DNA of 64,000 nt from Sphyrna mokarran (taxonomy: Eukaryota), in the NCBI GenBank assembly GCA_024679065.1, contig JAGIQG010000043.1, positions 1,860,001-1,924,000 on the forward strand. Direction: 5' to 3'. Position 1 is the first letter of the stretch. The number at the start of each line of letters is the position of its first letter. Of this stretch, positions 2,551-64,000 are shown piece by piece. Made by a program: the position numbers and the translations under genes. The notes beneath the pieces are model-generated. The model had not been told where the DNA came from. It worked only from the letters and a program-made list of their open reading frames with translations, and did no database searches.

Positions 2551-4714
2551 AGGCCAGTGTCATTCACATCCACTGATGGACCAATTGTCGTATCGATTCA
2601 TCAATTGACATTGTCTCTGCTTCTCGCTACCTCCAAAATTGGCGTGCTTATCCAATGAGCCCACACACCCGGGACATACTGTCTTCCACCTACTTCCGTC
2701 AGTAAATAAATGCAAAAGTCTGAGGTCATGTACCGACCAACTTAAGAACAGCTTCTTCCCTGCTGCCAACAGACATTTGAATAAACATATTATTTATTAA
2801 GCTGCTGTTTCTCTACACCTATAACTGTAACAACATATTCTGCACCCTCGCCTTTCCTTCTCCCCTATGTTCTCTCTGAAATGTATGTTTTGTCCGCAAG
2901 AAGCAATACTTTTCAGTGTATCCGAAACCATGTAACAATAATAAATCAATTCAAATCAAATTAAATCAAACATCTCAAAAAACAACTTTCGCTTCCCATG
3001 TTTTCTTCATAATGAAGTGTATCATTATTTCCAGGACAACAGGCCACTGCCACAGTGTTTGTAACCTACACCAGCATCCTTCGGCCCACACTCTATCCTT
3101 CTGCCCCCAAAATGTTCTATTATTATCTCCCTCCTGTGTTGATCCATTTTCTCCCGAAACGAGTATCTAATATTGAACTTAACTCAGCCCTGTTGTATCG
3201 AGTTCCACGTTCTATGCAATGTCTAGGAAAGGTATTTCTCTTGAACTCAATTTTGGATATTTTAGGGAACTGTTGCTGTTTAGGTTGCTGTTGGTCCAAT
3301 GTTCTTTTGTCCCCTCACTTTCTATACATGTATCCATTTGAATCTTTCCTATCTTCAAGACCTATTTTTGGTCATCCCCCAGTCGAATATTTTGTACTGT
3401 AATGAACAAAGAACAAAGAACAACACAACACAGTAACACAACACGGGAAAAAGGCCCTTCGACCCAACGAGCCTGTGCCACCATTTTAACATTGTGAGTG
3501 CCCTCTTCTACCCATGACCTTTGTCTATGCCTATTGGATTCCACAATAAAGGAATCATAACCAGATTGAGGGACGACTAATTTAGGAACGATTTGCTCAT
3601 GCTCAATTTTAACTAATATGATAACATTACAGCATTACATTACTGCTATCAATCTAATCAAAATATTGCCCACAATTCAACGCCATTCATCACTTCTATA
3701 CAGATATCCTGTAACCTGGCAATCTAGATTCAATGAACACATTTGGACAGATTGGACTCACCAACGCAATGCTTGATTTTGCAAACATGTTGTAACGTGT
3801 TGGTTCTTTGGATGCTCTCCTTCCTGCTCAAACCCAAATGAAAATGCATAATACATTAAAAAATATATATAAGATAGGAACATGCATGTCGAAGCTATGC
3901 AGTAATCAGACAGGACCAAATGTCGACGTTCTCTTGACATGGTGCAGGTTCCATTAGGCGGTAAGAAAGCCAAGGTGATAAGCCGTGCTCCTTTACTCTT
4001 TGTTATTGACAACGCAGCCCCAAACGAAATTTGACATGGCAGTCCTTTGGGCAGACTCCACCAACGCCCCTGCTTTCTAAGGAAGCTAAGGAAATTCGGC
4101 AAGTCCGCATTGACTCAAATCAAATGTTAATGATGCAGCACAATAAAACATCTTTTCCGGATGGTTCACATCTTGGTGTGGCTTCTGTTCCGACCAAGAT
4201 CATAAGGCACTACTACCAAGGGTTATGAATAAAGTCCAGTTTAATGCACAAAGTAACCTCTTTTCCAAGGCAGAGGGAAATGTAGACAGAGTCAATGGAT
4301 ATTGACTTTGTCTACACTTCCCGCTGACTTGGAAAAGCAGCCAGCAGAATCAAAGACCCTTTGCACCCTGGACATACACACTTCTACTTCCTTCCGTCGG
4401 GAAAAAAAATATAAATGTCTGAGGTCATCTAACAACCAACCAAGAACAGTTTCTCCCTGCTGCCGTCAGACTTTTGACCTCTATTGTATTATGTTCATCC
4501 TTCTCTGCACCCCAGCACCACTATAACATTACCCTGCGTACTCTCCTTTCCTTCTCTATAAACGGTGTGCTTTGGCTGCACAGCGTGCAAGAAACCATCC
4601 TTTTCACTGTATGTTAATACATTCGACAGCAAATAAATCAAATCAAACATTAAGGCTTTCTTCAAATGAAGAGGAAACAGATGAAACGATCTTAAGTGCG
4701 TCATATCCCGGAAA
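2551..4714 (+). repeat. Segmental duplication copy 1 (paralogous to 57659-64000)
   Basis: Collinear unique and repeat junctions from aggccagtgtcatt to atatcccggaaa. Confidence 0.9.
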
Positions 4715-7509
4715 CAGAATGTGAGCTCTCAGTTGTAGATGCTCCCGTTGCCGCAGTTTGTACCAATAGATAACCCCCCTATTCCAACAAGCCCATGTAA
4801 CAATGTACCTTGTATGTGCATCCAAGCGACGGAGTCTGGATTGCTGGGGTCTGTGGCAAAACTGCGTGAGATACAATACCTGAAAGAGACAAGGTTATCA
4901 CTACCTGTTCTGCTACAGCAGGATAGAAAACATTATTCCTCTGAAGAATGGACTACATCAAAATATAAAATACACTATCCTTTCATCAATAAATCATACT
5001 GAGCTCAAATGTTGGCGGTTAGATTTAAATCAATAACCGAAACAAGGAAGGAAGAGGAACAATGCACAGGGATGAAGGGTAATGTGTTTTGGTAATGGCA
5101 GCACAACAGACGCGATTGCAAGGTTGAAAAGGGAAGAAACAAAGTTAGAGCGAGGGCCAATGTGATACTGACTCAGATCATGGATTTGCTGCCGTGGGTT
5201 GGGGAATAAACCACGTGAGAATGCGTGGAAAACCAACAACACATCACCCCCACCATCATCACCTTATTGTTTCACAACCCACCCTCACACCACCCAAATC
5301 CAACCACCCTCTTGGGTTGATTGGCTAAATTACGTTGCCCCTTTACGTGCAAAGATGCGCCAGTTAGATGAATTGGCTAAGGTAAATTGTCCCTTTTCCG
5401 CCCAAAGATGAATAGGTTGAGTGGATGGTCCCTTAATATACAAAGATGTGCGATTGGATACGGATATGGAGATAGGGCCTGGATGGGATGTTGTCAATAC
5501 TCACTGGATCCAATGGCATCCTTCTGCTCTGTAGGGATTCTACAATTCTATGGTTCTGATAATTGGTGCCTGAGGATCTTTTACCTCCCGAAAGGGCACA
5601 TTGGCTGTTTCTTTTGAGCATCTCTTAGATTTGGAGAATAGGAACATGTCAGTGATTTGGAGGAATGACTTCCTTCAACAGAAAGTTATTTATTATTAGT
5701 GTTATAATTAGGTTTGGATTTACACTGCAATGAATTTACCGTGAAAATCCCCTGTTCACCACACACTGGTGCTTGTTCGGGTACACTGAGGGAGAACTTA
5801 GCATGGCCACTGCACCTAACTAGCACGCCTTTCGGACTGTGGGAGGAAACCAGAGCACCCTGAGGAAACCCAGGCAGACACGGGGAGAATGTGCAGACCC
5901 CATACACTCAGTGACCCAAACTAAGAATCGAATCTGGGACCGTCGCACCACGAGACAGCCGCGTGCCACCTTGCCGTCCTGTGCATTCAACTTTCCACTT
6001 GTTGGGCTATTTCATTTTTCTTAACTCACCACTGAGTCAATTCTGAATGAGAAATAAAGAAATCATAAACGTTAGAAGAGATAGTTGTTTTGGGCACAAT
6101 CAGTTTTTCTGGTGCTTATTATCCAATCGGGATTTGCATATTTGTCTTCATTTAAGTCTAGCCATATTTGTCCTCACCATTTCTCCCTCTTCAATTTGCC
6201 GCATTCCCATTTCATTTATTTGCCCCTGTGGCAGTGAGTTCAAAACTCTTACTGCTCACAATGCAAATAAGTTCCTCTGGAAGTCCAGACTGGACTACAT
6301 GTTGAGTATTTTACAAGGATGACTTCAGATCATGTGATCCTCTGTGACAATAACGCTTCTAAATAATGCTGGGACACATGTGGTTCCCCTGGAGTGCCTT
6401 GTTTCCGGTGGAGTTTTCCTTAGAACAAAACAACTGATGACTGGCCGTATTCTCGACACCAGGTGATGCATTTCTCAGAACTCCCACTACATAAAACAAG
6501 AAGTATTATGAATAGAAGGAAACAATGCAGCCACTCGGACTAGCTCTGTTACTCAGGCAGAGCATCCTTGATCTTATATCATACTTGCACTTTCTTGTTT
6601 GTTCTACATTATCATATCTCATGAGACCAGAGATTACAGTTCTGTCCATCGTCGCCTTTAATTGACTTAATTGTATTGCAGCCACATCGAATATTGTAGG
6701 TGGCGCTGTTCACAGCCATTTCCTCAGCACGAATTAATTCTGGGCAATGCTTGTCGAGCTACGCCAGGCGGCCCTGTTAGCAGACACCACGTCTACGTGA
6801 GGTGACTCTGTTCACAGACACTCCCAATTTAATGGTTATTCTTAAAGAGCCGCTGCTTCTACAGTTGCTGAATATGTTCCTGCTCTTGATTTAGGCAATT
6901 CTCTTCACTGTCACTCTCTACACAGTAGCTGAACCGTTCCATCAAATCCCTTTTACCATTTCCCCCTTTCTGGAATGAAAATGCAAACATCTCCACACTC
7001 TTCATACAACAGAAGATTCCATTCCTAGTGCCAAGATAGCAAATCGCTTCTGGGCACTTTTGACCGCCGTAATACCCTTCCTATGGTTTCCCATTCATAA
7101 TCGTGCACAACATTCCTTCTTTGAAATGACGAGAATTTTCAAAGGCTTACATATAAATTGCCTCCTGAATGTTCAATTCCTCTGTAGAGAAACAAATTAA
7201 TTTTTTTTTTAGCAAATGACCCTCTCAATTCATCCTGCCAACTTCATTGTTTCAGTTTCTGCTGTTCTCTATCTCTTCAATCTTTCATCCTCTTTAAGGT
7301 TTTAACCATATTCCTTATTGGTGCCTGAACTCTTCATAATGGAATGCATCATATCATTCTTCTGGGTTAATATGGATCAGCCAAGTGGCTGTTTATGTTC
7401 ACCTGAAGTCAATTAGACCAGATGACCATTAGTTGTAGGAGCAAAATTTGGCCATTTGGTCCATCGCTTCTGCTCCACCATCCGGTCATCACTGATCGGT
7501 GTCTCATTC

Positions 7510-10258: not shown

Positions 10259-10336
10259 TCATTTCCGGATCTTCTTTTTTGACCGCTTTTCCAATGCAGC
10301 CAAATCTAAGGAGGCGTAGAGAGGTCCACCCTGAGA
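10259..10336 (-). CDS. Gene A terminal coding exon SQGGPLYASLDLAALEKRSKKKIRK*
   Basis: Acceptor catttcccag, phase 0, YASL motif, TGA at 10259-10261. Confidence 0.82.
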   Translation of the reverse strand, partial: SQGGPLYASLDLAALEKRSKKKIRK

Positions 10337-10428
10337 CTGGGAAATGTATTAAATAGAAATTAAAATAAAGGACTGTTTCCCAAAATTCATTTCAATGTAT
10401 TTTCTTACAAGGGGTTCAATGCACTCAC

Positions 10429-10478
10429 CTGTATTCTACGCTGCGTTTTCAAGTTCGCCTCTGTTTGACCGTGATCCC
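10429..10478 (-). CDS. Gene A exon 7, cytoplasmic GDHGQTEANLKTQRRIQ
   Basis: Acceptor cttaacacacag, donor CAG|gtgagt, phase 1-0. Confidence 0.78.
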
Positions 10479-11699
10479 CTGTGTGTTAAGAGTTAAACTA
10501 TGAATTGAAGTGTCACACAAGCTATAGAATCTTTAAGGACATAGAAATATCTGGCGCCAATGACCACTTGTATATGAACAGTTTGAAGTCTATTTAATAG
10601 AGTACAAATAGGCTTACATTAACTCTGCAAGGATATTACTGGAAGAATTTCTTCCTCGTCACATTCTGGTGCTTGTTTCGATGCACTGAGGAAGAATTTA
10701 GCATCGCCAACGCACCTAAGTAGCATATTTTTTGAACTGTGGGCGGAGCACCCGGAAGAAACACACGCAAACACAGGGAGAACATGCAGACACGGCACAG
10801 ACAGATACCCAAGCCTGGAATCGACCCAAGGTCCCTGATGTTGCCAGAGAACAGTGCGAGCCACTGTGCCGCTGCAGTAACTTGTCAGACTACATTTAGT
10901 AATACACAGACCACTTAAATTTCGCCAACGTGACAAATATTCCACAATTCTTTACAAGCAGATAGACATGTAAGTGAAGGGGCCAAAGAATATGGGGAGA
11001 GGGCGCCATCAGGCTATTGAATTAGGTGATCAGCTATGATCATTTTGAATGGTGAAGCAGGAGCAAAATAAAGGCTGGTATCTTTCTGCTCCTATTTTGA
11101 ATGTTTCAATGTCAAATGGCCAACGGATGAATGAGGAAAATCTCACGCCATTATCTGTCGCTTGTTGTCCACCACAGGGTAGCACAGTGGTTATCACTGC
11201 TGCTTCACAGCCCCAGGGACCTGAGTTCGATTCCTGGCTAGGGTCACTGTCTGTGTAGAGTTTGCACATTCTTCTCGCGTCTGCATGAGTTTAATACGGT
11301 TGCTCCGATTTCCTCCCATGGTCCAAAGATGTGCGGGTTAGGTTGATTGGCTGTGCTAAAATTATTCCTTCATGTCCTGAGATGCGTATGTTAGAGGGGT
11401 TAGCGGGCGAACATTGGGATAGGATCTGGGTGGAATTGTGTTCGGTACAGACTCGATGGGACAAATGGCCTCCTTCTGTCCTGTAGGGTTTCTATCATCT
11501 GTGTTAATATCAACAATTTCCCCGTTCATGAAACCAACCGCTGCAAGAGTGTTGCATTTGCTGAAGATAAGGAACACACGCTATGGACAGCAATAGTAAG
11601 TGCACACATTATGGCTAATCCAACTAAACAAAGGAGGGGTCAGCCATTCCCTGGTTCATTCCTCCTGCCAGTGGTTTGACCAATCAGTCAAACGACCTC

Positions 11700-12340
11700 T
11701 TTTAACTATTTAGCAGGAAGTTAATAAGGCAAATGACATGTTGTCATTGATAGACCGAGGATTTGAGAACAAGAATGAGACATTTTACTACAATTGTACA
11801 GGGCGATGGGGAGAAGCCATATACGCAGTTTTGGAATCCTTATCTGAGGAATGATGTCCTTGCTATAGAGAGTGAATGTTTATCAACTGATTTCTGGTTG
11901 GCGGGTCGAATATATGAGGGGAGACTAACTCGATAGGATTGTATTGACTGGAGATAAGAAGATTGAGAGGGGACTTCAAGGAACCTTATAAAATTCTGAA
12001 AGGACTCGATAGGGTAGATTGAGAAGCAATGTTGCCGATCGTTAAGGTGCCCAGAACATGGGATAATAGTTTGAGGTTATAGAGGAAACTAAAATGAGGA
12101 GAAATGTCTTCACCTAGAGGGTGGTGAATGTATGGATTCATACCACAGAATATAGTTGAGGCTAAAACGTTGTGTGATTTCAGGAAGAAATTAAAAATTG
12201 TTCTTGGGATTGAGGGGATCAAATGGTATGGGGAAAGGAGATCAGATTGTTGAATTTGATTATCAGTCATTGTCGTAATGAATATCAGAGCCGGTTCGAA
12301 GTGCCGAATGGCATACTTCGTCTTCTATTTTCCATGTTAA
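11700..12340 (+). mobile_element. Old degenerate CR1 3' fragment in a gene A intron
   Basis: Decayed RT C-terminus DNA (agaagattgagaggggac, tataaaattctgaaaggactcgataggg) and tail. Confidence 0.7.
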
Positions 12341-12719
12341 CAATTGTAAGTAGATAATTGGCAATTATCAGTTAACTGGAGCATTCTCCATAAAAAGGCT
12401 GCAACCAATCAAAATCATTTTGCAAAATAGGTAAATTGTCTTCTCAGGAAGAATGCATAAATGTTTCCATTATACATGTTACTGTTGTGTTTTTTAGTGT
12501 GAATGAATACAAGACCAAACGCCTCGATGAAATGTTTTTGGTTGACAAAGCTCAAGTACTCCATTTATTCAAATTTTCTATCAAAAGTGCCTCAGAAGTT
12601 AACCATCAGTACAAAACAACTGGTGCATGCACCATAGAAGCGCCTCTACGAATCAATTTCCATTTCATTTTTTTAAAAATTCTGACATTTAAATTCACCA
12701 ACATTTCAGAAAAACTTAC

Positions 12720-12766
12720 CCATTTGTCGTCCCTTACGTTTCTCTCGCTGCCTTCTCTTGCTCAAG
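12720..12766 (-). CDS. Gene A exon 6, basic cytoplasmic LSKRRQREKRKGRQM
   Basis: Acceptor caattttag, donor G|gtaagt; phase 2-1 fits both neighbours. Confidence 0.78.
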
Positions 12767-12971
12767 CTAAAATTGGATGTAGGAAAAGAACGCCGAACAA
12801 ATGTTATATCTTGGCTAGCATATCTCAGATGCTGCACATTTTTGAAAGTAGGATTTTCCAATGATCTTATATAAATCAGTTTTCCAATTGAAATAGGTCT
12901 GACAAAATATAAGACAGAGAAAGAGGGGACAATGAACAATGTTGAAATTTGCACATTGTTCTCTTACTCAC

Positions 12972-13002
12972 GTGTCATTCTGGGATCCTATTTCTCTGTC
13001 AT
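12972..13002 (-). CDS. Gene A exon 5, cytoplasmic DDREIGSQND(T)
   Basis: Acceptor ttctatttcag, donor AC|gtgagt, phase 1-2. Confidence 0.78.
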
Positions 13003-13104
13003 CTGAAATAGAAGAATATACGATTAGCTAATTAAAAACTGCAAAGAGGATATCATATGGAGGAAAAAGATATTAAAGTGTCTCAGATAACCATTAATCT
13101 TCAC

Positions 13105-13206
13105 CTGATCTGCCGTGTTTACAAATCCAAATGGAAATCAGGACCGACAGCAGAATCAATATGGCCAGGACAGTGATTCCAACAGGAACCGTCTCTCTGC
13201 ACCATT
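13105..13206 (-). CDS. Gene A exon 4, stalk Cys + transmembrane helix
   Basis: ttttttctctatag acceptor; EWCRETVPVGITVLAILILLSVLISIWICKHGRS; donor G|gtgaag; 102 nt, phase 1-1. Confidence 0.88.
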
Positions 13207-13479
13207 CTATAGAGAAAAAAGAACACTTAGAAAATGCCATCGGTCAAATCATTCTTTTCCGGGGTTCTCTAACCAAGTTAAAACTGCAGAGTCACCAAAA
13301 TAGGGGCAGAATATAGGAAATGAAACATAGCTGTTGGGATGGAGAGTGGAGAATGAACACACAAAATGGAATTGATGACACAATATTTGATTGTGGAGAA
13401 CAATTAGATGACAGCACTGTCAGAGTTGTCCTAAATTCACGGTGTATCAGATTGTGTTAGACCATAAGATCAGGAGACA

Positions 13480-14265
13480 TAGGATCAAAATTAGGTCACT
13501 CGGCCCATGATCCTGCACCGCCATTCCTATATGGCTGATATCTTTCTCACCCCCATTCTCCTGCCTTTTCCCCAGAACCTTGATCCCCTTATTAATTAAG
13601 AAACTCTTTATCTTTGTTTTAAAGATACTCAATGACCTGGTTTCTACATTGATCTGCGGCAAAAAGCTTCCACTAATTCGCCACTCTCTGACAGATTCCT
13701 CTTCATTTCTGTTTTAGAGGATCCCAATACATGAGATAATAAATCAAGTCAAGTCATAGAGTCATAGAGTCATTGAGGTGACAGAATGGAAACAGGCCCC
13801 TTGGCCGATTTTTTCCATGCCCCCTTTTTAAAAAAAAATCCCAAAGCTTTTCCTAGTTGCCCGCATGTGGCCCATCTCCCTCTCCACCCATCGTATGCAT
13901 GTAAATATCTGAATGTGTTTTCAAAGTTAAAATTGTACCCCTCTCTAATATTATCTCTGGCAGCTTGTTCCAGGCAATCAACTCTGTGTGAAAGGAAAAT
14001 GTCCCTCTGGATGCTTCTGTATCTCTGCCCTCTCACTTTAAACCCATACCCTCAAGGTTTTAAACTCCCCTGTCTTGGGAAAAGATGTTGACTATTGACA
14101 TTGTTTATGCCCCTTATTATTTGATCGACGTCTATAAGGTGACCCCTCAGCCCCCTACGCTGCAGTTTTAAAAAAAAATCCCAGTTTATTCAGCCTCATC
14201 TTATAAATCAATCCATCAAGTTCCAGTGGCATCCTAGTAAATCTTTTCTGCACTCTTTCCAGTTT
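13480..14265 (-). mobile_element. Two old CR1 3' fragments in a gene A intron
   Basis: ORF 14155-14346 contains LERVQKRFTRM; typical CR1 tails. Confidence 0.65.
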
Positions 14266-15118
14266 AAGTCTATGTACTGTATGAACGATATGCTTGATTG
14301 TTATAGCGTGTAGGAAACAACACTTTTCACAGTATCCCCAATACATGTGACAATATTAAATCAAACCAAATCTATGTATTCTTTGTCTTTCAAGCGCACA
14401 AGAAACAACACTTTCTAAATTATCCCAATACAAGTGACAATATTAAATCAAATCAAGTCAAATCAAGTTGATGGGGACTGATATTTAACTGTCTTTCATG
14501 CCGCCATTGTTACTTTTTCCAATCTATTTAAATTGATGCCCTCCTGGTTCTCGGCCCTTTCCGCCTTTGTGAATCGATTCATCTTCGTTGTTTTGTCCAG
14601 ACAATTCAGGATTTTCACCACATTTCTCACATCTCCTCTTAACCTTCAGCTATTTCAGGATATCAACCCTCGCTTGTCCACGCTGTCCAGCTGATTGAAG
14701 TGCCTCATCTTTATGACCATTTGGTGAATAGTTTTTTTTTGCACTCTCTTCATATTTCTCATAAATTGCGTTGCCAGTAACTGAACACTTTTAAGACCGA
14801 TTCAGAATTCTGCAAAATGATGCTGTTGATTTTATATGTACGTATCATCATATCTATTCGTATGTAGTGAAACATATTGTTTCTTGCACGCTATACATAC
14901 AACACACACATTCCACAGCGTACGTAGATATGAATTGATTTGGTTTGATTTATTGTAGTCACACTTACTGGGGTACAGTGAAAAACATTCTCTCTTGCAC
15001 GCTACACAGACAAGACATACAGTTCATAGACTACATAGGGGAGAAATAAATGTAAGGATGCAGGATATATTGTCCCCTTCACAGCTCGGGTGTAGTGAAA
15101 GGTCACCTTGATATAAGG

Positions 15119-15345
15119 TAAAAACAAAATACTGCGGATGCTGGAATCTGAAAGAAACGTAGAAAATGCTGGAAAATCTTAGCAGGTCTGACAACGTCTG
15201 AGGGGACAGTATAGAGCCAACGTTTCGAGTCTAGATAACTTTTCATCGTAGCTTTGAAGAAGGATCGTCTAGACTCGAAATGTTGGCTCAATTCTCTACC
15301 CACAGATGCTGTCAGGACTTCTGAGATTTTCCAGCATTTTCTGGT
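15119..15345. mobile_element. Palindromic Penelope-like terminal relic with two decayed back-to-back hammerhead cores
   Basis: Arms ~15161-15250 and 15251-15342 are inverted about agct; ttgaagaagg...gactcgaaatgtt on + and a mirror copy on -. Confidence 0.6.
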
Positions 15346-16833
15346 TTGATATAATGACTTACGGTAGCAACGGAGAAGCTGCTCTTACGTCTGTTAGTAC
15401 GTGACCTCAAAGTTTGGTATGTTTTCCCCGATGAAAGAAGTTGGAAGAGATAATGTCCGGGCTGAGTGGAGTCCTTGATTATGTTGACAGCTTTTCTAAC
15501 GCAGTGAGAAGTGTAGATTTGCTTCATGCCCTTTCGATTCTGTGACTCGATTTCGACCCTCTGGATCTTCTATGTTTTCCTAACAGCCTGACATCTCCAA
15601 TGATTTGCAGGTGGCAGCATGGTGTTACAGTGATTCGCAGTGCTGTCTCACAGGGCCAGGGAACCTCGTTCAATTCCCGCCTTGGGTGCCTGTCTCAATG
15701 GAGTTGGCACATTTCCCCCTCTCTATATGCCTTTCCTTCAGCTGCTCTGCTTTCCCCCCACAGTCCAAAAATGGGCAGGTTAGTTGGATTGCGCCTTAAT
15801 GTCCATCAATGTGTGGTTTAGTTGGATTGGCCAAGTTAAATTACCCCTTAGTGTGCAGCAATGTGCCGATTAGTTGGATTGGCCATTCTAAGTTGTCCCT
15901 TCGTGTCCAGCAATGCGTGGTTTGGAATGATCGGCCACGCCAAATTGCCCTGTAATTGTTCAGAATGTGTATATTGGATGGATTTGCCATGCTAAACTGC
16001 CCCTTAGCATCCCAAGGTGCGTAGGTTAGGGGGATTCGCGGCTAAGTACGGGGGTTACGGGGATGAGCCCTGGGTCAAAAGAGAGTCAGTGAGGATTTGA
16101 TGAACTAAATGTCCTCCTTCTTCACTGTAGGATTGTATGATTTGAATAGATTCACGGCCAGGTAATTATTTTCCGAGTGATGAAAGTGTTGGAATCGTTT
16201 CCAACAATCCAAATTCAACATTTGCTCTTAATTCATATAAAAGAGAAACAATGGGAAAACCTAATCCAGTCAATCCTTAGAGTGTACTGCCATATGATCA
16301 TGGGGGATTAATAATGATTTATAATGTTACTGACATCAGTGGAAAATTTAAATATAACTCTTATGTGAGGAGGTAGATATAAATTGATTAATAGGCTTCG
16401 CTGAAGCAAAGTGAGGTAAATTAATTCACTGCCCTTCTGGGCGAAGATGTCAATTTCACCTCCTGTCTATGGCCTGTTTGTGAGGTGTCTGCAGTGTAGA
16501 ACTGATCTCACTTCCATTCTTAGATTCACTCTTCAAAAAGGAAGATGGGAATAAATAATAAACTTCAAAAGGGAAATCACTTCTTGACATGAAGGTGAAA
16601 ACTTGAAAGGGCGAGGGGTAAAATAGTGAGCAGAACAGCATCGCTGTTTCGAAGAGTGAGTCTGGACATAATTGACTTTCTGGGTGCATTGCTCAAAGAT
16701 TCTTACATGATTTCAGGAATATAAATCGAAACGTGGAAGTGTGTATCAAACGCGAACCTACTCTGGGTAGGTGCAACACAATACAGTCTGACATATTTTA
16801 TCAATTGATCGCACATACACGTTCAGATAAGTA

Positions 16834-16837
<4 letters not shown>

Positions 16838-16894
<57 letters not shown>

Positions 16895-17290
16895 ATACAC
16901 TCAGATATATGTCGATATACAACGCTTAGATATTTATGTATATACAAACATAGACAAAAACGCTCAATATTTCTCTTTATGCACACATTTACACGCACGC
17001 TCAGATACTTACCCATACGCACAAATAGACACACATCCGTTCAGATATTTATTTATGTACAACACATAGACACACATTTGGCTCATATATTTACAGATAC
17101 ACAGACATAGACACACATTCTCAGATCTTTATCCATACGCACATGCAAGCTTAGTTATATGTATGTATGTTTATATATTATATATATATATTCTCAGACA
17201 TATATATATATATTATAACCTCACGCCCATTTACGTATCCATATACACATATTCAGATATATAACTACATACACACACAAGTTCCGATAT
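16838..17290. repeat. (CA)n microsatellite and CA/TA-rich low-complexity tract in gene A intron 3
   Basis: Pure (CA)n at ~16838-16888, then degenerate repeats of ctcagatat. Confidence 0.9.
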
Positions 17291-17635
17291 TTATCTACAT
17301 TCACAGTTCAGATATATAATCATATGCACAGATGTTCAGGTATGTATTAATACACACACGTCTAAGTCTGAGATATCCACGAACAGACTCAAAAACTGCT
17401 TCTTTCTTGCTGCCTTCGGGCTTTTGAATGCACCTATCTTGCAATAAGCTAATCTTTCTCTAAACGTTAACTGTGTGTAAAACAACATGCTGTACTCTCT
17501 CCTTTCATTCACCCCGTGAACTGTATGAACGTCATGCTTTGTCAAAATAGCATACAAGAAATTATACATTTCACTGTATACTAATGCATGAAAAATAATG
17601 CTTCAAATGAAATCAAATGCACATATGCTCAGGGA

Positions 17636-17765
17636 NNNNNNNNNNNNNNNNNNNNNNNNNNNNNNNNNNNNNNNNNNNNNNNNNNNNNNNNNNNNNNNNN
17701 NNNNNNNNNNNNNNNNNNNNNNNNNNNNNNNNNNNNNNNNNNNNNNNNNNNNNNNNNNNNNNNNN
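17636..17765. other. Assembly gap (N) in gene A intron 3
   Basis: Run of N. Confidence 1.
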
Positions 17766-17948
17766 CACACACAAACAAACGCACACACGCATAGTCAGAA
17801 TCCCATATATGTTTATACATACAAACACGCACACACGTACAAACATACACACACGCACACATATGCCAAGATGGCCTGGTTCTACTAAACTAATCCACTT
17901 ATCTCTAAAGTTGAATAGAAACCTTCATAATACACAGTAGCATCTCAC

Positions 17949-18279
17949 CTTTCCAATTTTCAGTTGCCTTAGGAAACGAAACACTTTTTGTCCAATATTT
18001 CCTCGGAGTCCCCAGTTGAGCAATACAATTACAGATAGCGCCGCTTCTCCACGTTACCCCCGACACCATGACGTTACACCTGACGGGAGGAGGTCCCGTC
18101 CTCCTCCATTGTCCCTGGATCAGTCGATCCTTCAGCGACTAAACCGGAAATATTCCAGAAAACAGCAATCTGGTTGGAAGAAACTCCATTGACCAAACAC
18201 ACCAAGGGGACGGTATCATTCACATCCAGCTCATCCGGCGGGATAAATACCTGCACTGCCGTCTTGTTGGTAGAACTGT
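17949..18279 (-). CDS. Gene A exon 3, C1-set domain, frameshifted at 18085-18087
   Basis: VFIPP...VPLVCLVNGVS...FWNISG...EDGTSS, then after removing one base VRCNVMVSGVTWRSGAICNC..., collinear with gene B C1; 90-nt intron to V; donor G|gtgaga. Confidence 0.9.
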
Positions 18280-18369
18280 CTAGACAGAAATTGGGACATA
18301 GTTAACGATTTATTTACACCAAATGTTACTGCTGTGCACAATCTAAATTCATTTCACTTGCTCTCTTAC

Positions 18370-18702
18370 CTCCAACTTGTAGTGTGAGTCCATTCTGGAG
18401 CGGTGCATTGCTATCCTTATCAGCACAGTAGTAGGAACCCGAGTCATTCGCCTGGACATTGCGAATTTCCAGGATCAATTCACGTTTGTCGTGGCCTTTT
18501 TTAGAAATAAACTTACAATCAGCCTCCTGACAGGCTGGGATATCGATTACTTTCGGGATTTCACCAACATTTTGTTTGTACCAGAAATAGCTGGCCACGA
18601 CTTCCACCTCGAATTCCAGTTGACAGGTTAAATCCACCGTCTGGCCGACTTCGGCTGTCACTGTGAAGAGCCTTTGAGGTAGAGAGGAGTCGGAATCTGT
18701 AA
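18370..18702 (-). CDS. Gene A exon 2, V-set domain with extra Cys pair and degenerate J-like end
   Basis: GQTVDLTC...FWYKQ...ACQEADCK...LEIRNVQANDSGSYYCA...LQNGLTLQV; acceptor ctctctag (in-frame alternative start at 18696); donor G|gtaaga. Confidence 0.93.
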
Positions 18703-19291
18703 CTAGAGAGATTATTCAAACATTACCACATATTTCAACATAGAAAGTAGCCTTTTGGAAAAAAAACGCTGTAAATTAAGAACAGTTTCATTATTATCTT
18801 CAATTATACTTCTGCAGATTATTTCCCAAGTTGTGTTTTCTTCGCTTGAAAGGAGGAAGCTGAAAATCCCTTGTACCGATAATTAAGTCGTATTTGTAGT
18901 GCTGTAGCCGGGCGGCATGTGTTTGGCACCTTTGGCTCACGGCGCTGGGGACCAGGATTCAATTCCTGGCCTGGGTCACTGCCTGTGCACGTTCTCCCCG
19001 TGCCTGCATGGGAGTTTCCTCCCACTCACCGAAAGCTGTGCTGGTTCGGTGCATTGGCCGTGCTAAATTCTGCCTCTATGTAACCGTACTGGCGCAGGTG
19101 TGTGGCGACTGGAGTCTTTTCATAGTAACTTCATTGCAGAGTCGATGCAAAAGTGAAGATTACTAGTCACAAGTGAGGCTTACACTAACATTGGAATGTG
19201 AAATTCCCCTGGAAGCCGACTTGTGGCACTAATGCTTAAGAAACTAACTTGGCTGCTGCCATTTTCAATGTCTCACCTGGCAAATACTCAC

Positions 19292-41763: not shown

Positions 41764-41769
41764 TTTATT
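41764..41769 (-). promoter_or_regulatory. Candidate polyadenylation signal of gene B
   Basis: AATAAA on the minus strand ~720 nt downstream of the stop codon. Confidence 0.4.
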
Positions 41770-55505: not shown

Positions 55506-58283
55506 GAACCCAACATCCCTGTTGAGGCTGTCCTCATGCATTGGGAGCTTGGCTATGAGTTTGTGCTCGGCGAGTATGCATTTTCTTCTGTCTTGAAGAC
55601 CGCCTTGGAGAACGCTTATCCATCGCTATACCTCTCTCCACACACATTGTCTGTACCTGTACAGACTTGATTATCTGTAAAGACTCACCATCCAGCCATT
55701 ATCTTGCAAATGTGTCTTTATCTATGTAGGCTGTGCTTGTGAACCCACCTTCTCGCTCACCTGAGAAAGTAGCAGTGCTTCAAAACCTCCTGATTCCAAA
55801 TAAATCTGCTGTGCATTAACCCGGTATTGTGAAATTTCTTCCTGTTGCCTCGTACAATAATGAAAATTCATTTCAATGACAACATTTTTATCATTGTATT
55901 ATGCAGTTACCAAACTGATAGAATGCAATCTTTATGGAGTTTTGCAATTTTTTTCTGTTTTATAATTCAGATGTCCAAAGCTGTGCAGGTTAGGATGATT
56001 AGCAATGCTAAGAAATTGCCCCTTAGTGTCCAGGGATGCGTAGGTTAGAATATTAGTGGATATAACATGTAGGGATATGGGGGTAGGGCTTGGGTGGGAT
56101 TGTGTTTGGTGCAGAATCGATGGGCCAAAGGGCCTCTTTCTGCACTGTAGGCTTCTATGATTCTATGTTACTAATTCTAAGTTTGTGAAGCTTTACAAGA
56201 AAGATTCCAGTACCGATGAAGGGTTTCTCTGCACCTGGTTAAACTGCATCGGACTCACGTCTGTCTAGTTGTTTAGTCTTCAATCAAGAGAAACAACCAA
56301 ATTTGGTTCAAATAGAACATTTTAGTTTCAGCTATTACGTAAGTTCCATCTCCTAGACAAAATGTGTTGCCGATTTAATGGGTCTCCCATTTGATTGTCC
56401 CATTCTGGTTGATATGAATTTTGATTATATTATAAATATAAATGCTGGAGAAACTCAGCGGCTTTGGCAGATCCGTGGAGACAGAAACGCAGTTTCACAG
56501 ACATTCTCTCCCTCCACCATGACGCTGATTGTATAACAATAATTCACCAATGATCCTTCGACAGCACCTTCCAAACCCACGATCACTGCCTTGTAGAATG
56601 ACAAAAGCAGCTTATGTATGAGAACACCAACATCTGCATGCTCCCCTTCGAACCACTCACCATCCTGTATAATTAAAAGCCGTTGTTGTCAAAAAAAAGT
56701 TGGAAACATATTGGCCGTCACGAGGACAACATCCTGGAATTCTTTCCCTAACGGCCTTTTTGTCAACCCATAGTCGGTGGACTGAAGTCTTTCAAAAAGG
56801 CAGCTCGCTTCATTAGGGCAACTAAGGATGAAAAACGAATTCTGAACATCCAGCGATCCCCATGTCCCAGTAATGAATTAAAAAAGATGAACATTTTAGA
56901 TTCATGTGAGTTGTGCAGAATTTGAACTCTGGTGTTGGGTTCTCTGAAGAACATCTCAGTTTCGCATGAAGATACTGGGGTTAAAAAGGGATACATTGCG
57001 AGAGCACGTTACACAGAGTAATCTTATTCCTTCCAGCAGATAAGATTATGAGATGGTCTATTCGCCGTGTTTAAGTTTGAAAAATAATTTGATGGGTTAA
57101 TGGAGGGAAACTGTTTCCTCTGCCGGGGGCGGAGTCGGGGGTGGGTCCATAACATTGGGTCAGAGCTTTTAAATTACTGCCAGACAGTTTAGGGGTGATG
57201 TCAGAGTGCACTTTCCCAGTGTGCCCTGGTACTCTGGATCACTGTCCCCCAGGAAGATCTGGATGCAGGGATAAATGTCATTTTGTTGGATTATGTTACA
57301 GAACCCAGTGTTCAATTCCCACTCCGACACACGGCAAAAGATAAATACAACACGAAAAATTTGGAATTAAATTCGAATGTATAATTAAAAGCCGTTGTTG
57401 TAAAAAAGCCCGTGTTGAAAAATGACTTGGCAAGTCACTCAGTTAGTTCAAGGGTAAATAAGGACGGCCAATACGGGGGTGACGCCCCCGTCCCATGAAT
57501 GAACTAATTGAAGAAATAGTGAAGTTTATCCCTTGGAAAGAAAACGGCCTCAAGCTTCTAATGTTTGCAATACCGAAATTGTAATTGAAATACATCATCA
57601 CCTCAATGAAACGTCCTTTGAATTTCACTTAAATAATGAACTGTTTATTTTATTCAGAAGGCCAGTGTCATTTACATCCTCAAATGGATCCATTGATGAT
57701 TTTATCTATGCTTCTCGCTATCTCCGAAAAATAGCGAAGTTATTCAGGGACCCCAATTACCCCGGACAAACTCTCTTCCACCTACTTCCGTCAGTAAAAA
57801 AATATACAGAAGTCTGAGATCATATACCAACCAACTTAAGAACAGCTGCTTCCCTGCTGCCAACACACTTTTGAATGAACATACCATTATTAAGTGCTCT
57901 TACTCTACACCTGTGACTGTAACAATACATTCTGCACCCTCTCCTATCCTTCTCCCCTATGTACTCTCTGAAATGCATGTTTTGTCCACAAGAAACAATA
58001 ATTTTCGGTGTATCCCAATCCATGAAACAATAATAAATCAAATCAAACCAAATTAAATCAAGCATTTCGAAAAAAACAATTTTCACCTCCCATGATCTCT
58101 TCATTTCAAAATGCACCATTATTTCCAGGACAACAGGCCTCTGTCACAGTGTTTGTAATGTACATCAACCTCTTCCGACTCACACTCTACCCATCCCCCC
58201 TCAACATGCTCTATTGTTATCTCCCTCCTGTGTTGATCCAATTTCCACCTAAATGAGTATCTGATATTCAACTAATCCAAGCC

Positions 58284-59297
58284 GGTTACAAGTGGTGTAC
58301 CTTCAGGGGTCTGTTTTGGGGCCCCTGCTGTTTGTAATTTTTATAAATGATCTGGATGAGGGTATTGAAGGATGGATTAGTAAATTTGCAGATGACACTA
58401 AAGTCGGTGGAGTGGTAGATAGTGAAGAGGGGTGTTATAGTTTGCAGAGAGACTTGGACAAGTTGCAGAGCTGGGCCGAGAGGTGGCAAATGGAGTTTAA
58501 TGTGGAAAAGTGTGAGGTAATGCACTATGGCAGGAATAATAAATGTGTAGAGTATAGGGCTAATGGTAGGATTCTTAGTAGTCTTGATGAACAGAGGGAT
58601 CTTGGTGTGTATGTGCATAGATCCCTGAAAGTAGGCAGTCAAGTCGAGAAGGTTGTTAAGAAGGCATATGGAGTCTTAGCTTTTATTGGTAGGGGGATTG
58701 AATTTCGGAGCCGCAACGTCATGTTGCAACTGTACAAAACTCTAGTGCGGCCGCACTTGGAGTATTGTGTGCAGTTCTGGTCCCCACATTATAAGAAAGA
58801 TGTGGAGGCATTGGAGAGGGTACAGAGGAGGTTTACCAGGATGTTGCCTGGTATGGAGGGCAGGTCTTATGAGGAGAGGCTGAGGGATTTGAGGTTGTTT
58901 TCGTTAGAAAGGAGGCGGCTAAGAGGGGACCTTATCGAAACATATAAGATGATTAGAGGTTTAGATAGGGTGGACAGTGATAGCCTTTTTCCTAGGATGG
59001 AGAAAGCTAGCACGAGGGGACACAGCTTTAAATTAAGGGGTGATAGTTATAGGATGGATATCAGAGGTAGGTTCTTTACCCAGAGGGTGGTTAGGGAGTG
59101 GAATGCCCTGCCTGCGGCAGTTGTAGATGCGCCAAGTTTGGTGCGTTTAAGAGGTTAGTTGATAAGTTTATGGAAGAGAAGGGAATGGTTTAGTTTGGAG
59201 GGTCATTGCTTTTTTCATAATTGGTCGGCGCAACATCGAAGGCCGAAGGGCCTGTTCTGCGCTGTAATGTTCTAAGTTCTATGTTCTATGTTCTAAG
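58284..59297 (+). mobile_element. 5'-truncated CR1 LINE (second subfamily)
   Basis: ORF 58292-59158 with KFADD and the RT C-terminus; (ttctatg)n tail; absent from the paralogous block near 3190. Confidence 0.93.
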
Positions 59298-60108
59298 CTC
59301 TGTTGTATCGAGTTCCACATTCTATGCTATTTCTGGGAAAGGTATTTCTTTGAACTTAACATTGGACCCATTAGCGAATAACGGGTGCTGGAGTCCAATG
59401 TTCTTGTTCCCCCTCACTTTCTATAACGTATATCCTTTTGAATCTTTCATACCTTCCAAGATCTATTTTAGGTCACCCACCGCTCCCCCCGCCCCCCCCT
59501 TCCCCCCACAGCACAACAGCCCCCCACCTCCCCCCCCCCGCCCACTACCCCACCCCAGTCGAATATTTTGTACTGTGAAGAACAAAGAGCAAAGAATAAC
59601 ATAACACAGCAACACAGCAAGGGAAACAGGCCCTTCGACCCAACGAACCCGCGCTGCCATTTTAACATTGTGAATGCCCTCTTCTACCTATGACCTTTGT
59701 CTACGCCTACTGCACTCCACAAGAAAGGAACCATAACCAGATTGAGGGGCGACTAATTTAGGAACACCTTGCTCATACTCAATTTTAACTAATATCATAA
59801 CATTACATCATTACATTGCTGGTATCAATGTAATGAAATCGTTGCCCACAGTTAAACGTCATCATCACTTCTATACAGATAGCTTGTAATCCAGATTCAA
59901 TGAACACATTTCGACAATTTGGACTCACAAACGCAATGCTTGATTTTGGAATCTTGTTGTAACGTATTGGTTCTTTGGATGTTCTCCTTCCTGCTCAAAC
60001 CCTAATGTAAATTCATAATACATTAAAAAAATACATAAGATAGGAACATGCATGTCGAAGCTATGCAGAAATCAGATAGGACCAAATGTCAGAGTTCCCT
60101 TGACATGG

Positions 60109-63100
60109 CAGCTTGGACCAATACCTGGAACTTCGATGTTGTGGCCATTTCAGAGACGAGGGTAGAGCAGGGACACGAATGGTTGTTGCAGGTTCCGGGG
60201 TTCAAATGCTTCAGTCGGAGTAGAGAAGGAGGTAGAAGGGGGGGGGGAGGAGTGGCATTATTAGTCAAAGACTCTATCACAGTGACAGAAAAGAAGTTTG
60301 ATGAGGACTTGTCTGTTGAGGTAGTAAGGGCTGAGATTAGAAACAGGAGAGGAGAGGTCACCCTGTTGGGAGTCTTTTATAGACCTCCTAAAAGCTCTGG
60401 CGAGGTAGAGGAAAGGATTGCAAAGTCGATCCTGGACAGGAGTGAAAGTAATAGGGTAATTGTTATGGGGACTTTAACTTTACTAATATTGATTGGAATT
60501 GCTATAGCTCTGGTACGTTAGAGGTGTCAGTTCTTGTACAAAGTGTGCAGGAAGGTTTTTTGACTCAGTATGTAGATATGCCAACTAGAGGTGAGGCTAC
60601 ATTGGATTTGGTGCTGGGCAATGAGCCAGACCAGGTGTTTGGCTTGGAAGTTGGTGAACATTTTGGTGATAGTGACCACAATTCGGTTACGTTCACCTTA
60701 GTGATGGATAGTGATAGGCATGAAGCTGGGGGCCAATTATAGCTGGGGGAATGGTAATTATGAGGCCATCAGGAGAGAATTAGGGTGCATAGGTTGGAGG
60801 AGTAAACTACAGGGACTGGGAACATCTGAAATGTGGAGCTTATTCAAGGAGCAGCTGCTGTGAGTCCTTGATAAGTATGTCCCTGTCAGGCAAGGAGGAA
60901 ATGGTCGAATAAGGGAGCCATGGTGTACGAAAAAAGTTAATTCGCTGGTTAAAAGGAAAAAAAAGCTTATGTCAGGATGAGGCTTGAAGGCTCAGTTAGT
61001 GCAATGGATAGCTATAGATTAGCCAGGAGGGAGCTAAAGAGTGAGTTGAGGAGAGCTAAGAGGGGGCACGAGAAGACTTTGGCTGATAGGATTAAGGAGA
61101 ATCCTAAAGCTTTCTTTAGATATGTTAAGAATAGAAGATTGGTTAGGGCAAGATTAGGGCCAGTCATAGACAGCAGTGGGAAGTTGTGCGTGGAGCCTGA
61201 AGAGATTGGAGAGGCACTGAACAAATATTTCTCTTCGGTATTCACGCAGGGAGATGTAAATGTAGTTGTGGAGAACACTGGGATACAGGGTTGCAAACTG
61301 GAAAGTATTGAAGTAGATAAGGAGGATGTGCTAGATATTCTTGAGGGTTTGAAGTTAGATAAGTCCCCTGGGCCGGACGGGATTTACCCTAGGATTCTCT
61401 GGGAGGCAAGAGAGGCGATTGCAGAGCCTCTGGCTCTGATCTTCAGGTCGTCGTTGGTTACGGGTCTAGTTCCGGAAGACTGGAGGATAGCGAATGTGGT
61501 CCCATTGTTCAAGAAGGGGAGAGAGACCTTTCCAGGGAATTATAGGCCGTGAGTCTTATTTCTGTTGTGGGCAAAGTATTGGAGAGAATTATTAGGGATA
61601 GGATTTATAGTTATTTAGAGAGAAATGAATTGATTGGGGATAGTCAGCATGGTTTTGTGAAGGGTAGGTCGTGCCTTACTAACCTTATTGAGTTTTTTGA
61701 ATAAGTGACCAAAGAGGTGGATGGGGGTAAGGCAGTCGATGTGGTATATATGGACTTTAGTAAGGCGTTCGATAAGGTGGCCCATGGAAGGCTTCTGCAG
61801 AAAATGCAGATGTATGGGATAGAGGGGGATTTAGCTAATTGGATTAAGAATTGGCTAGCAGATAGAAGACAGAGGGTGGTGGTTGATGGGAGATATTCAT
61901 CATGGAGTTCGGTTACAAGTGGTGTACCTCAGGGGTCTATTTTGGGGCATCTGCTGTTTGTAATTTTTATAAACGATCTGGATTAGGGCACTGAAGGATG
62001 GATTAGATAGATAGAAGATAGATAGATAGATAGAACAATACAGCACAGAACAGGCCCTTCGGCCTTCGATGTTGTGCCGACCAAAATAAAAAGCAATGCC
62101 CCTCCTAACTAAACCATTCCCTTCTCATCCATATACTTATCAACTAACCTCTTAAACGCCACCAAACTTGGCGCATCTACAACAGCTGCAGGCAGGGCAT
62201 TCCACTCCCTAATCACTCTTTGAGTAAAGAACCTACCTCTGATATCCGTCCTATAACTCATACCCCTTAATTTAAAGTTGTGTCCCCTCGTGCTAGCTTT
62301 TTCCATCCTAGGAAAAAGGCTATCACTGTCCACCCTAAATTAGTAAATTTGCGGATGACACCAAAGTCGGTGGAGTGGTAGATAGTGAAGAGGGGTGTTA
62401 TAATTTGCAGAGAGACTTGGACAAGTTACAGAGCTGGGCCGAGAGGTGGCAAATGGAGTTTAATGTGGAAAAGTGTGAGGTAATGCACTTTGGCAGGAAT
62501 AATAAATGTGTAGAGTATAGGGCTAATGATAGGATTCTTAATAGTGTTGATGAACAAAGGGATCTTGGTGGATATGTGCATAGATCCCTGAAAGTAGGCA
62601 GTCAAGTCGATGAGGCTGTCAAGAAGGCATACAGAGTCTTAGCTTTTATTGGTAGGGGGTTTGATTTTCGGAGCTGCAGCGTCATGTTGCAACTGTGCAA
62701 AACTCGAGTGCGGCCGCACTTGGAGTATTGTGTGCAGTTCTGGTCCCCACGTTATAAGAAAGATTTGGAGGCATTGGAGAGGGTACAGAGGAGGTTTACC
62801 AGGATGTTGCCTGGTATGGAGGGCAGGTCTTATGAAGAGAGGCTGAGGGATTTGATGCTGTTTTCATTCGAAAGAAGGCGGCTAAGAGGAGACCTTATTG
62901 AAACATATAAGATGATTAGAGGTTTAGATAGCGTGGGCAGTGATAGCCTTTTTCCTAGGATGGAGAAAGCTAGCACGAGGAGACACAGCTTTAAATTAAG
63001 GGGTGATAGTTATAGGACGGATATCAGAGGTAGGTTCTTTACCCAGAGGGTGGTTAGGGAGTGGAATGCCCTGCCTGCGGCAGTTGTAGATGCGCCAAGT

Positions 63101-63256
63101 TTGGTGGCGTTTAAGAGGTTAGTTGATAAGTTTATGGAAGAGAAGGGAATGGTTTAGTTTGGAGGGTCATTGCTTTTTTTTCATAATTGTTCGGCGCAAC
63201 ATCGAAGGCCGAAGGGCCTGTTCTGTGCTGTAATGTTCTGTAATCTACGTTCTATG
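60109..63256 (+). mobile_element. CR1 LINE ORF2 (endonuclease + RT), 5'-truncated and degenerate
   Basis: EN fragments 60048-60742 and RT fragments 60977-63157; ATGG duplicated at the ends; empty site gacatggtgcagg at ~3936-3948. Confidence 0.93.
62007..62338 (-). mobile_element. CR1 3' fragment inserted antisense into a CR1 of its own subfamily
   Basis: ORF 62109-62333 is nearly identical to the host C-terminus; (tatc)n tail; ATTAG duplicated at 62002-62006 and 62339-62343. Confidence 0.9.
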
Positions 63257-64000
63257 GTGCAGGTTCCATTAGGCGTTAAGAAAGCCTAGCAGGCGATAAG
63301 CCGTCCTCCTTTGCTCTCTGTTATTGATAACGCAGCCAGAAACGAAATTTGACATGGCAATCCTTTGGGCAGACTCCACCAACGCCCCTGCTTTCTAACG
63401 AGGCAAAGGAAATTCGGCAAGTCCGCTTTGATTCTAATCAAATGTTAATAATGTAGCACAATAAAGCATCCTTTCTGGATGGTTCAGACCTTGGCCTGGC
63501 TCCTGTTCCTACCAAGATCGCAAGGCACTACTATCAAAGATTATGTATTAAGCCCAGTCCAATGCACAAAGTAACATCTTTTCCAAGGAAGCGGAAAACA
63601 CTTTTCCAAGACACTTTCCGCTGATTTGGAAAATCAGCCAGCAGAACCAAAGATCCTTTGTACCCTGGACGTATACTTTTCTACCTCCTTCTGTCGGAAA
63701 AAAAAGATACAAATGTCTGAGATCACCGGCCAAGTTTCTTCCCTGCTGCCGTCAGACTGTTGACCTCTATTATATTAAGTTCATCTTTCTCCGCACCCCA
63801 GCTACGACTGTAACATTACACTGTGCACTTTCCTTTCCTTCTCTATAAACGGTATGCTTTGGCTGCATAGCGTGCAAGAGACAATCCTTTTCACTGTGTA
63901 CAAACATATATGATAGTAATAAATCAAATCAAACATTCAGGCTTTCTTCAAATGAAGCGGAAACTGTTGAAACGATCTTAACTGCGTCATATCCCGGAAA

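What the first reader, a model, noticed from the sequence alone, without database searches (positions are those of the whole stretch)
2551..64000. The receptor pair is bracketed by a direct duplication ~55 kb apart: likely a tandemly amplified two-gene cassette
Seen: 2551-4714 is collinear with 57659-64000, including non-repeat junctions; it is diverged, and each copy has private CR1 insertions. Inference: the repeat unit contains B+A. This predicts another gene-A 3' end roughly 5-6 kb beyond the window end and another gene-B leader several kb before the window start (shifted by insertions), i.e. a multigene paired cluster under birth-and-death evolution.
Basis: partly seen in the sequence, partly recalled or inferred. 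Interest (0 to 1): 0.7.

Follow-up and report, generated by a model that had tools for sequence, protein, structure and literature searches.

The report
Duplicated receptor pseudogene in shark cluster
An old 2.2-kb stretch occurs twice, 55-59 kb apart, on either side of two antibody-like immune receptor genes, and it turns out to be the tail of a broken third receptor gene, which likely marks a tandem duplication in an expanding shark gene cluster whose relatives in other sharks include predicted activating forms.

Summary
The duplication is real. 2536-4714 matches 57644-64000 in four collinear blocks: 86.5% identity, K2P 0.15, the same in window-unique and repeat-derived parts. CR1 insertions inside the block occur only in the right copy (empty sites on the left, one 4-bp target duplication); the left CR1 only abuts it.

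This is a truncated V-exon pseudogene (4879-4706, minus strand) of a subfamily that is intact in other sharks and skates (E 5e-10). The transcription order is relic' - B - A - relic, so a simple tandem unit holds three genes, not two. B is intact (308 aa, VJ-C1-TM-TLYARL); A has a +1 frameshift in C1.

Relatives are multicopy on single scaffolds in several sharks, which supports birth-and-death. A:B ratios vary widely, which argues against a fixed cassette. Four A-type paralogues carry the FcRγ-type NxxR transmembrane motif.

Flanks could not be examined. Both extra-gene predictions hold only if the unit junction lies between A and B, or if there are three or more units. The nearest prediction is a V relic within about 165 bp past 64000. 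The genes resemble PRARP; membership is untested.

The parts
2536..4714 (.). Left copy of the duplicated block: 3' tail of the truncated V relic plus three shared older repeat remnants
57644..64000 (.). Right copy of the block, split by later CR1 insertions; it runs off the window at the position matching 4714, i.e. inside the last codons of the V relic
4706..4879 (-). V-exon pseudogene fragment of a third ('C') subfamily: phase-1 acceptor at 4879, stop and frameshift near 4782, homology lost after about 4706; no leader, C1 or TM remnant found
   Evidence: tblastn E 5e-10 to Cetorhinus XP_078390234.1, 62% and 50% identity in two pieces; profile 30.8 and 12.4 bits against a shuffle maximum of 9.8; sequence; leader search negative
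2604..2970 (+). Old LINE 3' remnant shared by both copies (Rex1-like; label recalled, not from a call)
   Evidence: overlapped by up to 17 other self-hits in the window; K2P 0.16 to its duplicate against 0.27-0.34 to other copies
4058..4679 (+). Second old LINE 3' remnant of the same kind, shared by both copies
3401..3608 (-). Shared repeat remnant matching CR1 3' tails in antisense
58274..59292 (+). CR1 3' fragment private to the right copy; empty site near 3175-3185 in the left copy
   Evidence: RVT_1; junctions
60109..63253 (+). CR1 fragment private to the right copy, with ATGG target-site duplication and a nested antisense CR1 3' end at 62012-62337
   Evidence: endonuclease and RVT_1 hits; junctions; K2P 0.05-0.07 between these CR1 pieces
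454..2535 (+). CR1 of another subfamily abutting the left copy's low end, younger than the duplication
   Evidence: RVT_1; K2P 0.063 to the copy at 37.7-38.8 kb
42486..48082 (-). Gene B, intact: exons 48082-48040, 47047-46709 (VJ, FGNG), 46606-46286 (C1), 44976-44857 (uncharged TM), 44719-44661, 42530-42486 (TLYARL); 308 aa
   Evidence: all GT-AG and open; V-set and C1-set; V 70-71% identical to Mustelus proteins
10259..19346 (-). Gene A: leader 19346-19292, VJ 18702-18370, C1 18279-17949 with a +1 frameshift near 18087, TM 13206-13105, cytoplasmic exons 13002-12972, 12766-12720, 10478-10429, 10336-10259 (PLYASL)
   Evidence: the donor at 10429 was read by hand (the script chose 10425, which shifts the tail)

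Best explanation
The two blocks are diverged copies of the tail of a broken third receptor gene, likely produced by one old unequal crossover that duplicated a unit of about 50-55 kb holding that relic, gene B and gene A, inside a cluster of non-rearranging V-C1 immune receptor genes that likely keeps gaining and losing copies. Shown: one duplication age across the block; three repeats inserted before it and CR1 elements after it; the V relic; B intact; A frameshifted; multicopy relatives on single scaffolds. Inferred: (1) the relic was already truncated before the duplication, because both copies share the sequence that follows the point where V homology is lost; (2) unequal crossover as the mechanism; (3) A and B lying inside the duplicated unit, which implies at least one more A and one more B nearby, on a side set by the unknown junction unless since deleted; (4) function as inhibitory receptors paired with FcRγ-using activating paralogues. 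The duplicated DNA itself is likely non-functional.
For: Uniform K2P of 0.145 (unique) and 0.155 (repeat-derived), while the shared repeats are 0.27-0.34 from their other family copies and the private CR1s are 0.05-0.07 from each other. Empty sites and an ATGG duplication polarise the CR1 insertions. Relic: (best pairwise scores 168, 165, 148 for C-type, against at most 108 for five B-type and at most 73 for six A-type proteins checked). Direct orientation, all genes on the minus strand. Relatives on one scaffold each, judged by equal contig length: 19 clusters in Heterodontus, 11 in Cetorhinus, 10 in S. canicula, 5 in Mustelus, isoforms included, with species-specific clades. Window gene B groups with one Mustelus B (100/86) to the exclusion of another (100/94), suggesting a B duplication in their common ancestry (V only, 117 columns). 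Cetorhinus accession numbers run C A C A B B A B A B C, which would be near-alternation if positional (unverified).
Against: No second A or B exon lies in the window. Homology stops at 2536/57644, and 271-453 has no match in the window. The abutting CR1 is younger than the duplication, so homology should have resumed beyond it unless there was a deletion or this is the unit edge. Heterodontus accession numbers do not alternate. Mustelus returned five B-type accession groups to one A on that scaffold, and S. canicula returned only A-type; the search may be incomplete. Genome-wide copy number of the block is unknown.
Confidence: 0.55

Rival explanations
1. A short duplication of a few kb moved only the relic region, or the relic with one neighbour. 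A and B came to lie between the copies through separate duplications and deletions in the cluster and were not copied in this event.
For: Homology ends at 2536/57644 and does not resume at 271-453. No second A or B exon lies in the window. A:B counts are unbalanced in Mustelus and S. canicula.
Against: Bases 1-2535 are almost all SINE and CR1, so the left edge is barely tested. The right copy is still aligned where the window ends. Direct repeats in a tandem cluster most simply reflect unit length.
Confidence: 0.25
2. One reading: a fixed B+A cassette was amplified as a unit, with an A 3' end 5-6 kb past the window end and a B leader several kb before the start.
For: The geometry allows it if the junction lies in the 23-kb gap between A and B. 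Heterodontus and Cetorhinus have expanded both types. Cetorhinus accession order nearly alternates.
Against: It omits the relic, which is the only gene-derived part shown to be duplicated. Type ratios vary between sharks. Two of the three possible junction positions give only one of the two predictions.
Confidence: 0.15
3. The block is a decayed dispersed repeat or composite mobile element that happens to occur twice here.
For: 1170 of 2177 duplicated bases are repeat-derived. Genome-wide copy number was not testable.
Against: It is continuous with a receptor V-exon relic. Three older repeats are shared at identical junctions. No convincing Pfam match in 25 of the 46 block ORFs scanned (best E 0.008, below cut-off). 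No Rfam hit in the window.
Confidence: 0.04
4. An assembly artefact: a false duplication or two haplotypes placed in tandem.
For: The scaffold has two N gaps and one near-perfect inverted repeat.
Against: 13.5% divergence, 25 gap openings and copy-specific CR1 insertions with a target duplication are far beyond allelic or assembly duplicates.
Confidence: 0.01

Closest known systems
[quoted passage not shown] 2019, doi 10.4049/jimmunol.1801305; only the title was seen, in a reference list; content recalled)
   Same: Linked pair of non-rearranging VJ genes, V-C1 outside birds, TM, single ITIM- or ITSM-like tyrosine motif (recalled). Here B has FGNG and TLYARL; A has PLYASL.
   Different: Recalled as a two-gene inhibitory pair. 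Here there are three subfamilies, many copies per shark, pseudogenes and NxxR paralogues. Gene A lacks the FGxG motif. No PRARP sequence or synteny could be compared.
UrIg / UrIg2 of elasmobranchs (PMC12227049, parts 1-4 of 8 read)
   Same: Single-exon VJ followed by C1, non-rearranging, in sharks.
   Different: UrIg is V+3 C1 and secreted; UrIg2 is V+9 to 11 C1 with TM. The genes here have one C1 and a tyrosine-motif tail and are multicopy.
Paired-receptor clusters with NxxR activating members: Xenopus XFL, LILRA2, PIR-A, NKp46, GPVI, OSCAR, FcαR (PMC2413239, passages read)
   Same: Tandemly expanded families with uncharged-TM, tyrosine-motif members and NxxR short-tailed members that associate with FcRγ.
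   Different: Those ectodomains are FcR/KIR-like; here the ectodomain is antigen-receptor-like VJ-C1. NxxR forms were seen only in other sharks' gene models, not in this window.
SIRP and teleost NITR clusters (descriptions recalled; SIRP-like proteins appear as distant hits)
   Same: V domains with J-like ends, birth-and-death clusters, inhibitory and activating forms.
   Different: SIRP has V-C1-C1 and NITR has V-I (recalled). The SIRP-like hit scored E 1.6e-23, against 1e-55 or better for the near-full-length shark and ray relatives.

Membership tests
Segmental (tandem) duplication | Collinear, same-orientation homology including single-copy sequence | tested here: met
   1007 of 2177 bases are window-unique; four collinear blocks
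Segmental (tandem) duplication | One divergence level across the block; older repeats shared, younger ones private | tested here: met
   K2P 0.145 against 0.155; empty sites; ATGG duplication
Segmental (tandem) duplication | Low copy number genome-wide | not testable with these tools
   no vertebrate genome collection was available
Tandem B+A two-gene cassette | A second copy of both A and B in register with the block | not testable with these tools
   none in the window; predicted positions lie outside it
Tandem B+A two-gene cassette | The unit contains only two genes | tested here: not met
   a third V gene relic is continuous with the block
Tandem B+A two-gene cassette | Balanced copy numbers of the two types across species | tested here: inconclusive
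   both types expanded in Heterodontus and Cetorhinus; skewed in Mustelus and S. canicula; word-index search may be incomplete
PRARP (features recalled) | Single-exon VJ domain without recombination signals | tested here: met
   V and J-like end lie in one exon in A and B; no exact heptamer-spacer-nonamer match in the window, one isolated heptamer match in A's V-C1 region
PRARP (features recalled) | Canonical J-like FGxG | tested here: inconclusive
   present in B and C types, absent in A types
PRARP (features recalled) | V-C1-TM with a cytoplasmic ITIM/ITSM-like motif | tested here: met
   Pfam V-set and C1-set; TLYARL in B and PLYASL in A (non-canonical at Y-2); 55 of 71 TM-bearing relatives have a YxxL/I/V/M motif
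PRARP (features recalled) | Orthology by sequence and synteny to chicken or Xenopus PRARP | not testable with these tools
   papers not held; no hit named PRARP
PRARP (features recalled) | Disulfide-linked homo- or heterodimer | not tested
   a stalk cysteine is invariant in 16 of 16 aligned relatives; binding was not modelled
UrIg/UrIg2 | Three or more C1 domains | tested here: not met
   one C1 in each window gene and in the aligned full-length relatives against PMC12227049
Paired activating/inhibitory receptor cluster | Activating members with a charged TM (NxxR) and a short tail | tested here: inconclusive
   4 of 96 relatives have NxxR after the stalk Cys and lack PLYASL; none in the window; these are predicted gene models

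The most novel reading that the evidence does not exclude
Sharks carry a large, fast-turning cluster of germline-encoded, antigen-receptor-like VJ-C1 receptors with three ancient subfamilies. Type A chains would pair with type B/C chains, and A comes in inhibitory and FcRγ-coupled NxxR activating versions: a paired NK-type receptor system built from TCR-like chains and amplified in multi-gene units such as the one bracketed here.
Probability: 0.3. Interest if true: 0.75.

Novelty: new variant of a known kind. Interest (0 to 1): 0.45.

Why it matters
The duplication itself is ordinary for an immune gene cluster. It matters as a marker. It places the window in an expanding shark cluster of non-rearranging VJ-C1 receptors, the gene type discussed as kin of the precursor that the RAG transposon split (PMC12227049; PMC10751288). 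If the NxxR paralogues are real activating receptors, cartilaginous fish would have a paired receptor family with TCR-like ectodomains, a candidate for shark NK-type recognition that can be tested directly. Nine full-text searches returned no description of such a shark cluster. The two most relevant papers (Fu 2019, Ohta 2019) are not held, so prior description is not excluded; supplements of the papers read were not examined and might list these genes.

Tried and rejected
- DNA alignment of the relic to the window's own B or A V exons was not significant (z 1.7 and -0.6).
- A phmmer search of the 43-aa second relic piece against 1.84 billion representatives found 0 hits. The relic was identified only after C-type relatives came in through.
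- Searches for the relic's 3' V half, C1, TM and leader, in both block copies and between 4900 and 10250, were negative.
- The idea that the SINE at 104-270 or the CR1 piece at 54856-55505 is the duplicate of the left flank was rejected: identity is 76% with unmatched flanks, and the CR1 piece is equally distant (85.5-86.6%) from all family copies.
- A and B as products of this duplication was rejected: V 28% and C1 45% amino-acid identity, and separate clades (100/100) spanning sharks and rays.
- No second, Arg-bearing TM exon was found in the window.
- Rfam gave 0 hits; Pfam on 25 of 46 block ORFs gave nothing above cut-off.
- PDB and ESM Atlas gave only generic antibody or V-C1 matches.
- No complex or structure prediction was run, because a VJ-C1 pair would tend to pass by likeness to Fab/TCR.
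- The bacterial, phage and plasmid collections were not relevant and were not searched; the metagenome and viral contig collections stayed unchecked.
- Of the relatives, 63 entered the tree, plus the window's A and B V exons; those without a recognisable full V end or a species label were left out.
Full report
Observation. A self-comparison of the window shows 2536-4714 matching 57644-64000 in the same orientation in four blocks of 78-87% identity, with offsets growing from 55.1 to 59.3 kb. Of 2177 duplicated bases, 1007 have no other copy in the window. Six such segments score 61-448 against 57001-64000 and 21-29 against 6001-57000, so this is not chance. With the insertions skipped, identity is 86.5% over 2099 columns (K2P 0.15), the same in unique (0.145) and repeat-derived (0.155) parts.

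Order of events. Three repeat remnants (2604-2970, 3401-3608, 4058-4679) are shared at identical junctions. The two LINE remnants are 0.27-0.34 from other family copies but 0.15-0.16 from their duplicates, so they predate the duplication (the label Rex1-like is recalled). Two CR1 insertions in the right copy (about 58274-59292 and 60109-63253) have empty sites on the left, and the second has an ATGG target duplication. These CR1 pieces are 0.05-0.07 from one another, so they came later. The left copy has no private CR1 inside it. Its CR1 (454-2535) abuts the point where homology ends; beyond lie a SINE and 183 bases (271-453) that match nothing in the window. The left edge is therefore either the unit boundary or a deletion, and the window cannot say which.

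The genes. The nearest relatives are shark proteins, gene B being 70-71% identical in V to Mustelus asterias models, so the source is likely a carcharhiniform shark. Gene B (48082-42486, minus) has six GT-AG exons and an open 308-aa frame: leader, VJ with FGNG, C1, uncharged TM and a TLYARL tail. Gene A (19346-10259, minus) has the same layout with eight exons and a PLYASL tail, but a +1 frameshift in C1 near 18087. It is a young pseudogene or an assembly error; the scaffold has two N gaps. A and B are ancient paralogues, 28% identical in V, in separate fully supported clades that include rays. They are not products of this duplication.

What the block is. A profile of B-type V domains picked two adjacent collinear pieces at 4883-4794 and 4777-4727 as the best hits outside the real genes (14.3 and 6.7 bits; shuffle maximum 8.5). 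A wider search (83 proteins) brought in a third subfamily, intact in Cetorhinus, Scyliorhinus torazame and Leucoraja, with a related set in Rhincodon and Stegostoma. These match 4874-4706 at E 5e-10, with 62% and 50% identity in two pieces. Their profile gives 30.8 and 12.4 bits against a shuffle maximum of 9.8. A phase-1 acceptor sits at 4879 as in gene B, with a stop and frameshift near 4782. Homology is lost after about 4706, and no 3' V half, C1, TM or leader was found. The duplicated block begins inside the last codons of this relic, and the right copy reaches the window end exactly there. Both copies share the sequence after the break, so the gene was likely already truncated when it was copied. 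In transcription order the window reads relic' - B - A - relic.

If the two copies are one tandem unit apart, everything between them belongs to the unit: relic, B and A. Which side carries the extra genes depends on the junction. A junction between the left block and A puts both extra genes on the left. A junction between B and the right block puts both on the right, and this last case fits homology stopping at 2536/57644. The nearest firm prediction is a V relic in the first ~165 bp after 64000. No vertebrate genome collection was available, so the flanks and the genome-wide copy number stayed unchecked.

Evidence from relatives. Judged by equal contig length, 90%-identity clusters lie on one scaffold per species: 19 in Heterodontus, 11 in Cetorhinus, 10 in S. 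canicula and 5 in Mustelus, isoforms included. They form species-specific clades. Both main types are expanded in Heterodontus and Cetorhinus. S. canicula returned only A types, and Mustelus five B accession groups to one A on that scaffold; the search may be incomplete. Cetorhinus accession numbers nearly alternate between A and B/C types, while Heterodontus numbers do not; accession order is an unverified proxy for position. Birth-and-death is well supported; a fixed two-gene cassette is not.

Charged-TM paralogues. Of 96 stored proteins, 89 had a detectable C1 end and 71 a TM. Nine of the 71 had a charged residue in the TM core, and 7 of those 9 lacked a tyrosine motif, against 9 of 62 uncharged ones (isoforms and kin are not independent). 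Four A-type models (Heterodontus, S. canicula, Hemiscyllium, Chiloscyllium) have NxxR just after the stalk cysteine and lack PLYASL; one has another YxxV. NxxR at the TM N-terminus marks FcRγ-associating receptors such as NKp46, OSCAR and LILRA2 (PMC2413239, passages). None is encoded in this window, and all four are predicted models.

Comparison with known systems. The layout fits my recollection of PRARP (Fu et al. 2019): a linked non-rearranging VJ-C1 pair with ITIM/ITSM-like tails. Only its title and a one-line mention were seen (PMC10751288, passages); that paper and Ohta et al. 2019 are not held, so orthology is untested. UrIg and UrIg2 are excluded by domain number (PMC12227049, parts 1-4 of 8). 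The passages shown from PMC11599192 did not bear on the question. Nine searches found no account of this shark cluster; supplements were not read.

Verdict. The duplication is real and old, and its duplicated DNA is likely non-functional. It is reinterpreted as a copied pseudogene tail in a three-subfamily cluster. Confidence is 0.55 that the unit held relic, B and A; 0.25 for a short local duplication; 0.15 for the strict cassette as first stated. Interest is 0.45, carried by the family rather than by the duplication.

Noticed in passing
window 31161-31713 and 31943-32495: Near-perfect inverted repeat, 551 of 553 identical, with a 229-bp spacer and no evident target duplication; the sequence just beyond its right end matches a repeat remnant also seen at 59661-59712. 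A recent fold-back duplication or an assembly artefact.
   Followed up: partly
window ~18087 (gene A, C1 exon): Single +1 frameshift in a short C run; every other exon and splice site looks intact, so it is a very young pseudogene or a base-calling error.
   Followed up: partly
window 46296-46334: A 15-bp in-frame tandem repeat at the end of gene B's C1 exon adds five residues relative to the Mustelus proteins.
   Followed up: no
window 36931-41415 (-): Near full-length CR1 with an ORF1 esterase-like domain (Lipase_GDSL_2/OSK), endonuclease and a fragmented RT.
   Followed up: no
P0003, P0013, P0020, P0055 (Heterodontus, S. canicula, Hemiscyllium, Chiloscyllium models): A-type paralogues with an NxxR TM motif and no PLYASL tail: candidate FcRγ-coupled activating receptors.
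   Followed up: partly
P0052, P0076 (Heterodontus models): C-like V segment lacking its first strands joined to a B-like C1/TM: possible chimeras or further broken C-type genes.
   Followed up: no
window 53265-53812, 45391-45749, 49854-50027, 15794-15915; 43979-44448, 48692-48972: Tandem arrays of 51-52 bp that match the window's SINE copies, and of 95-96 bp that match its LINE 3' remnants, around gene B and inside introns.
   Followed up: no
window 8832-8988 and 17636-17765: Two N gaps beside simple repeats; the assembly is gapped here.
   Followed up: no
window 59475-59553: A 78-bp C-rich stretch present only in the right copy of the block.
   Followed up: no
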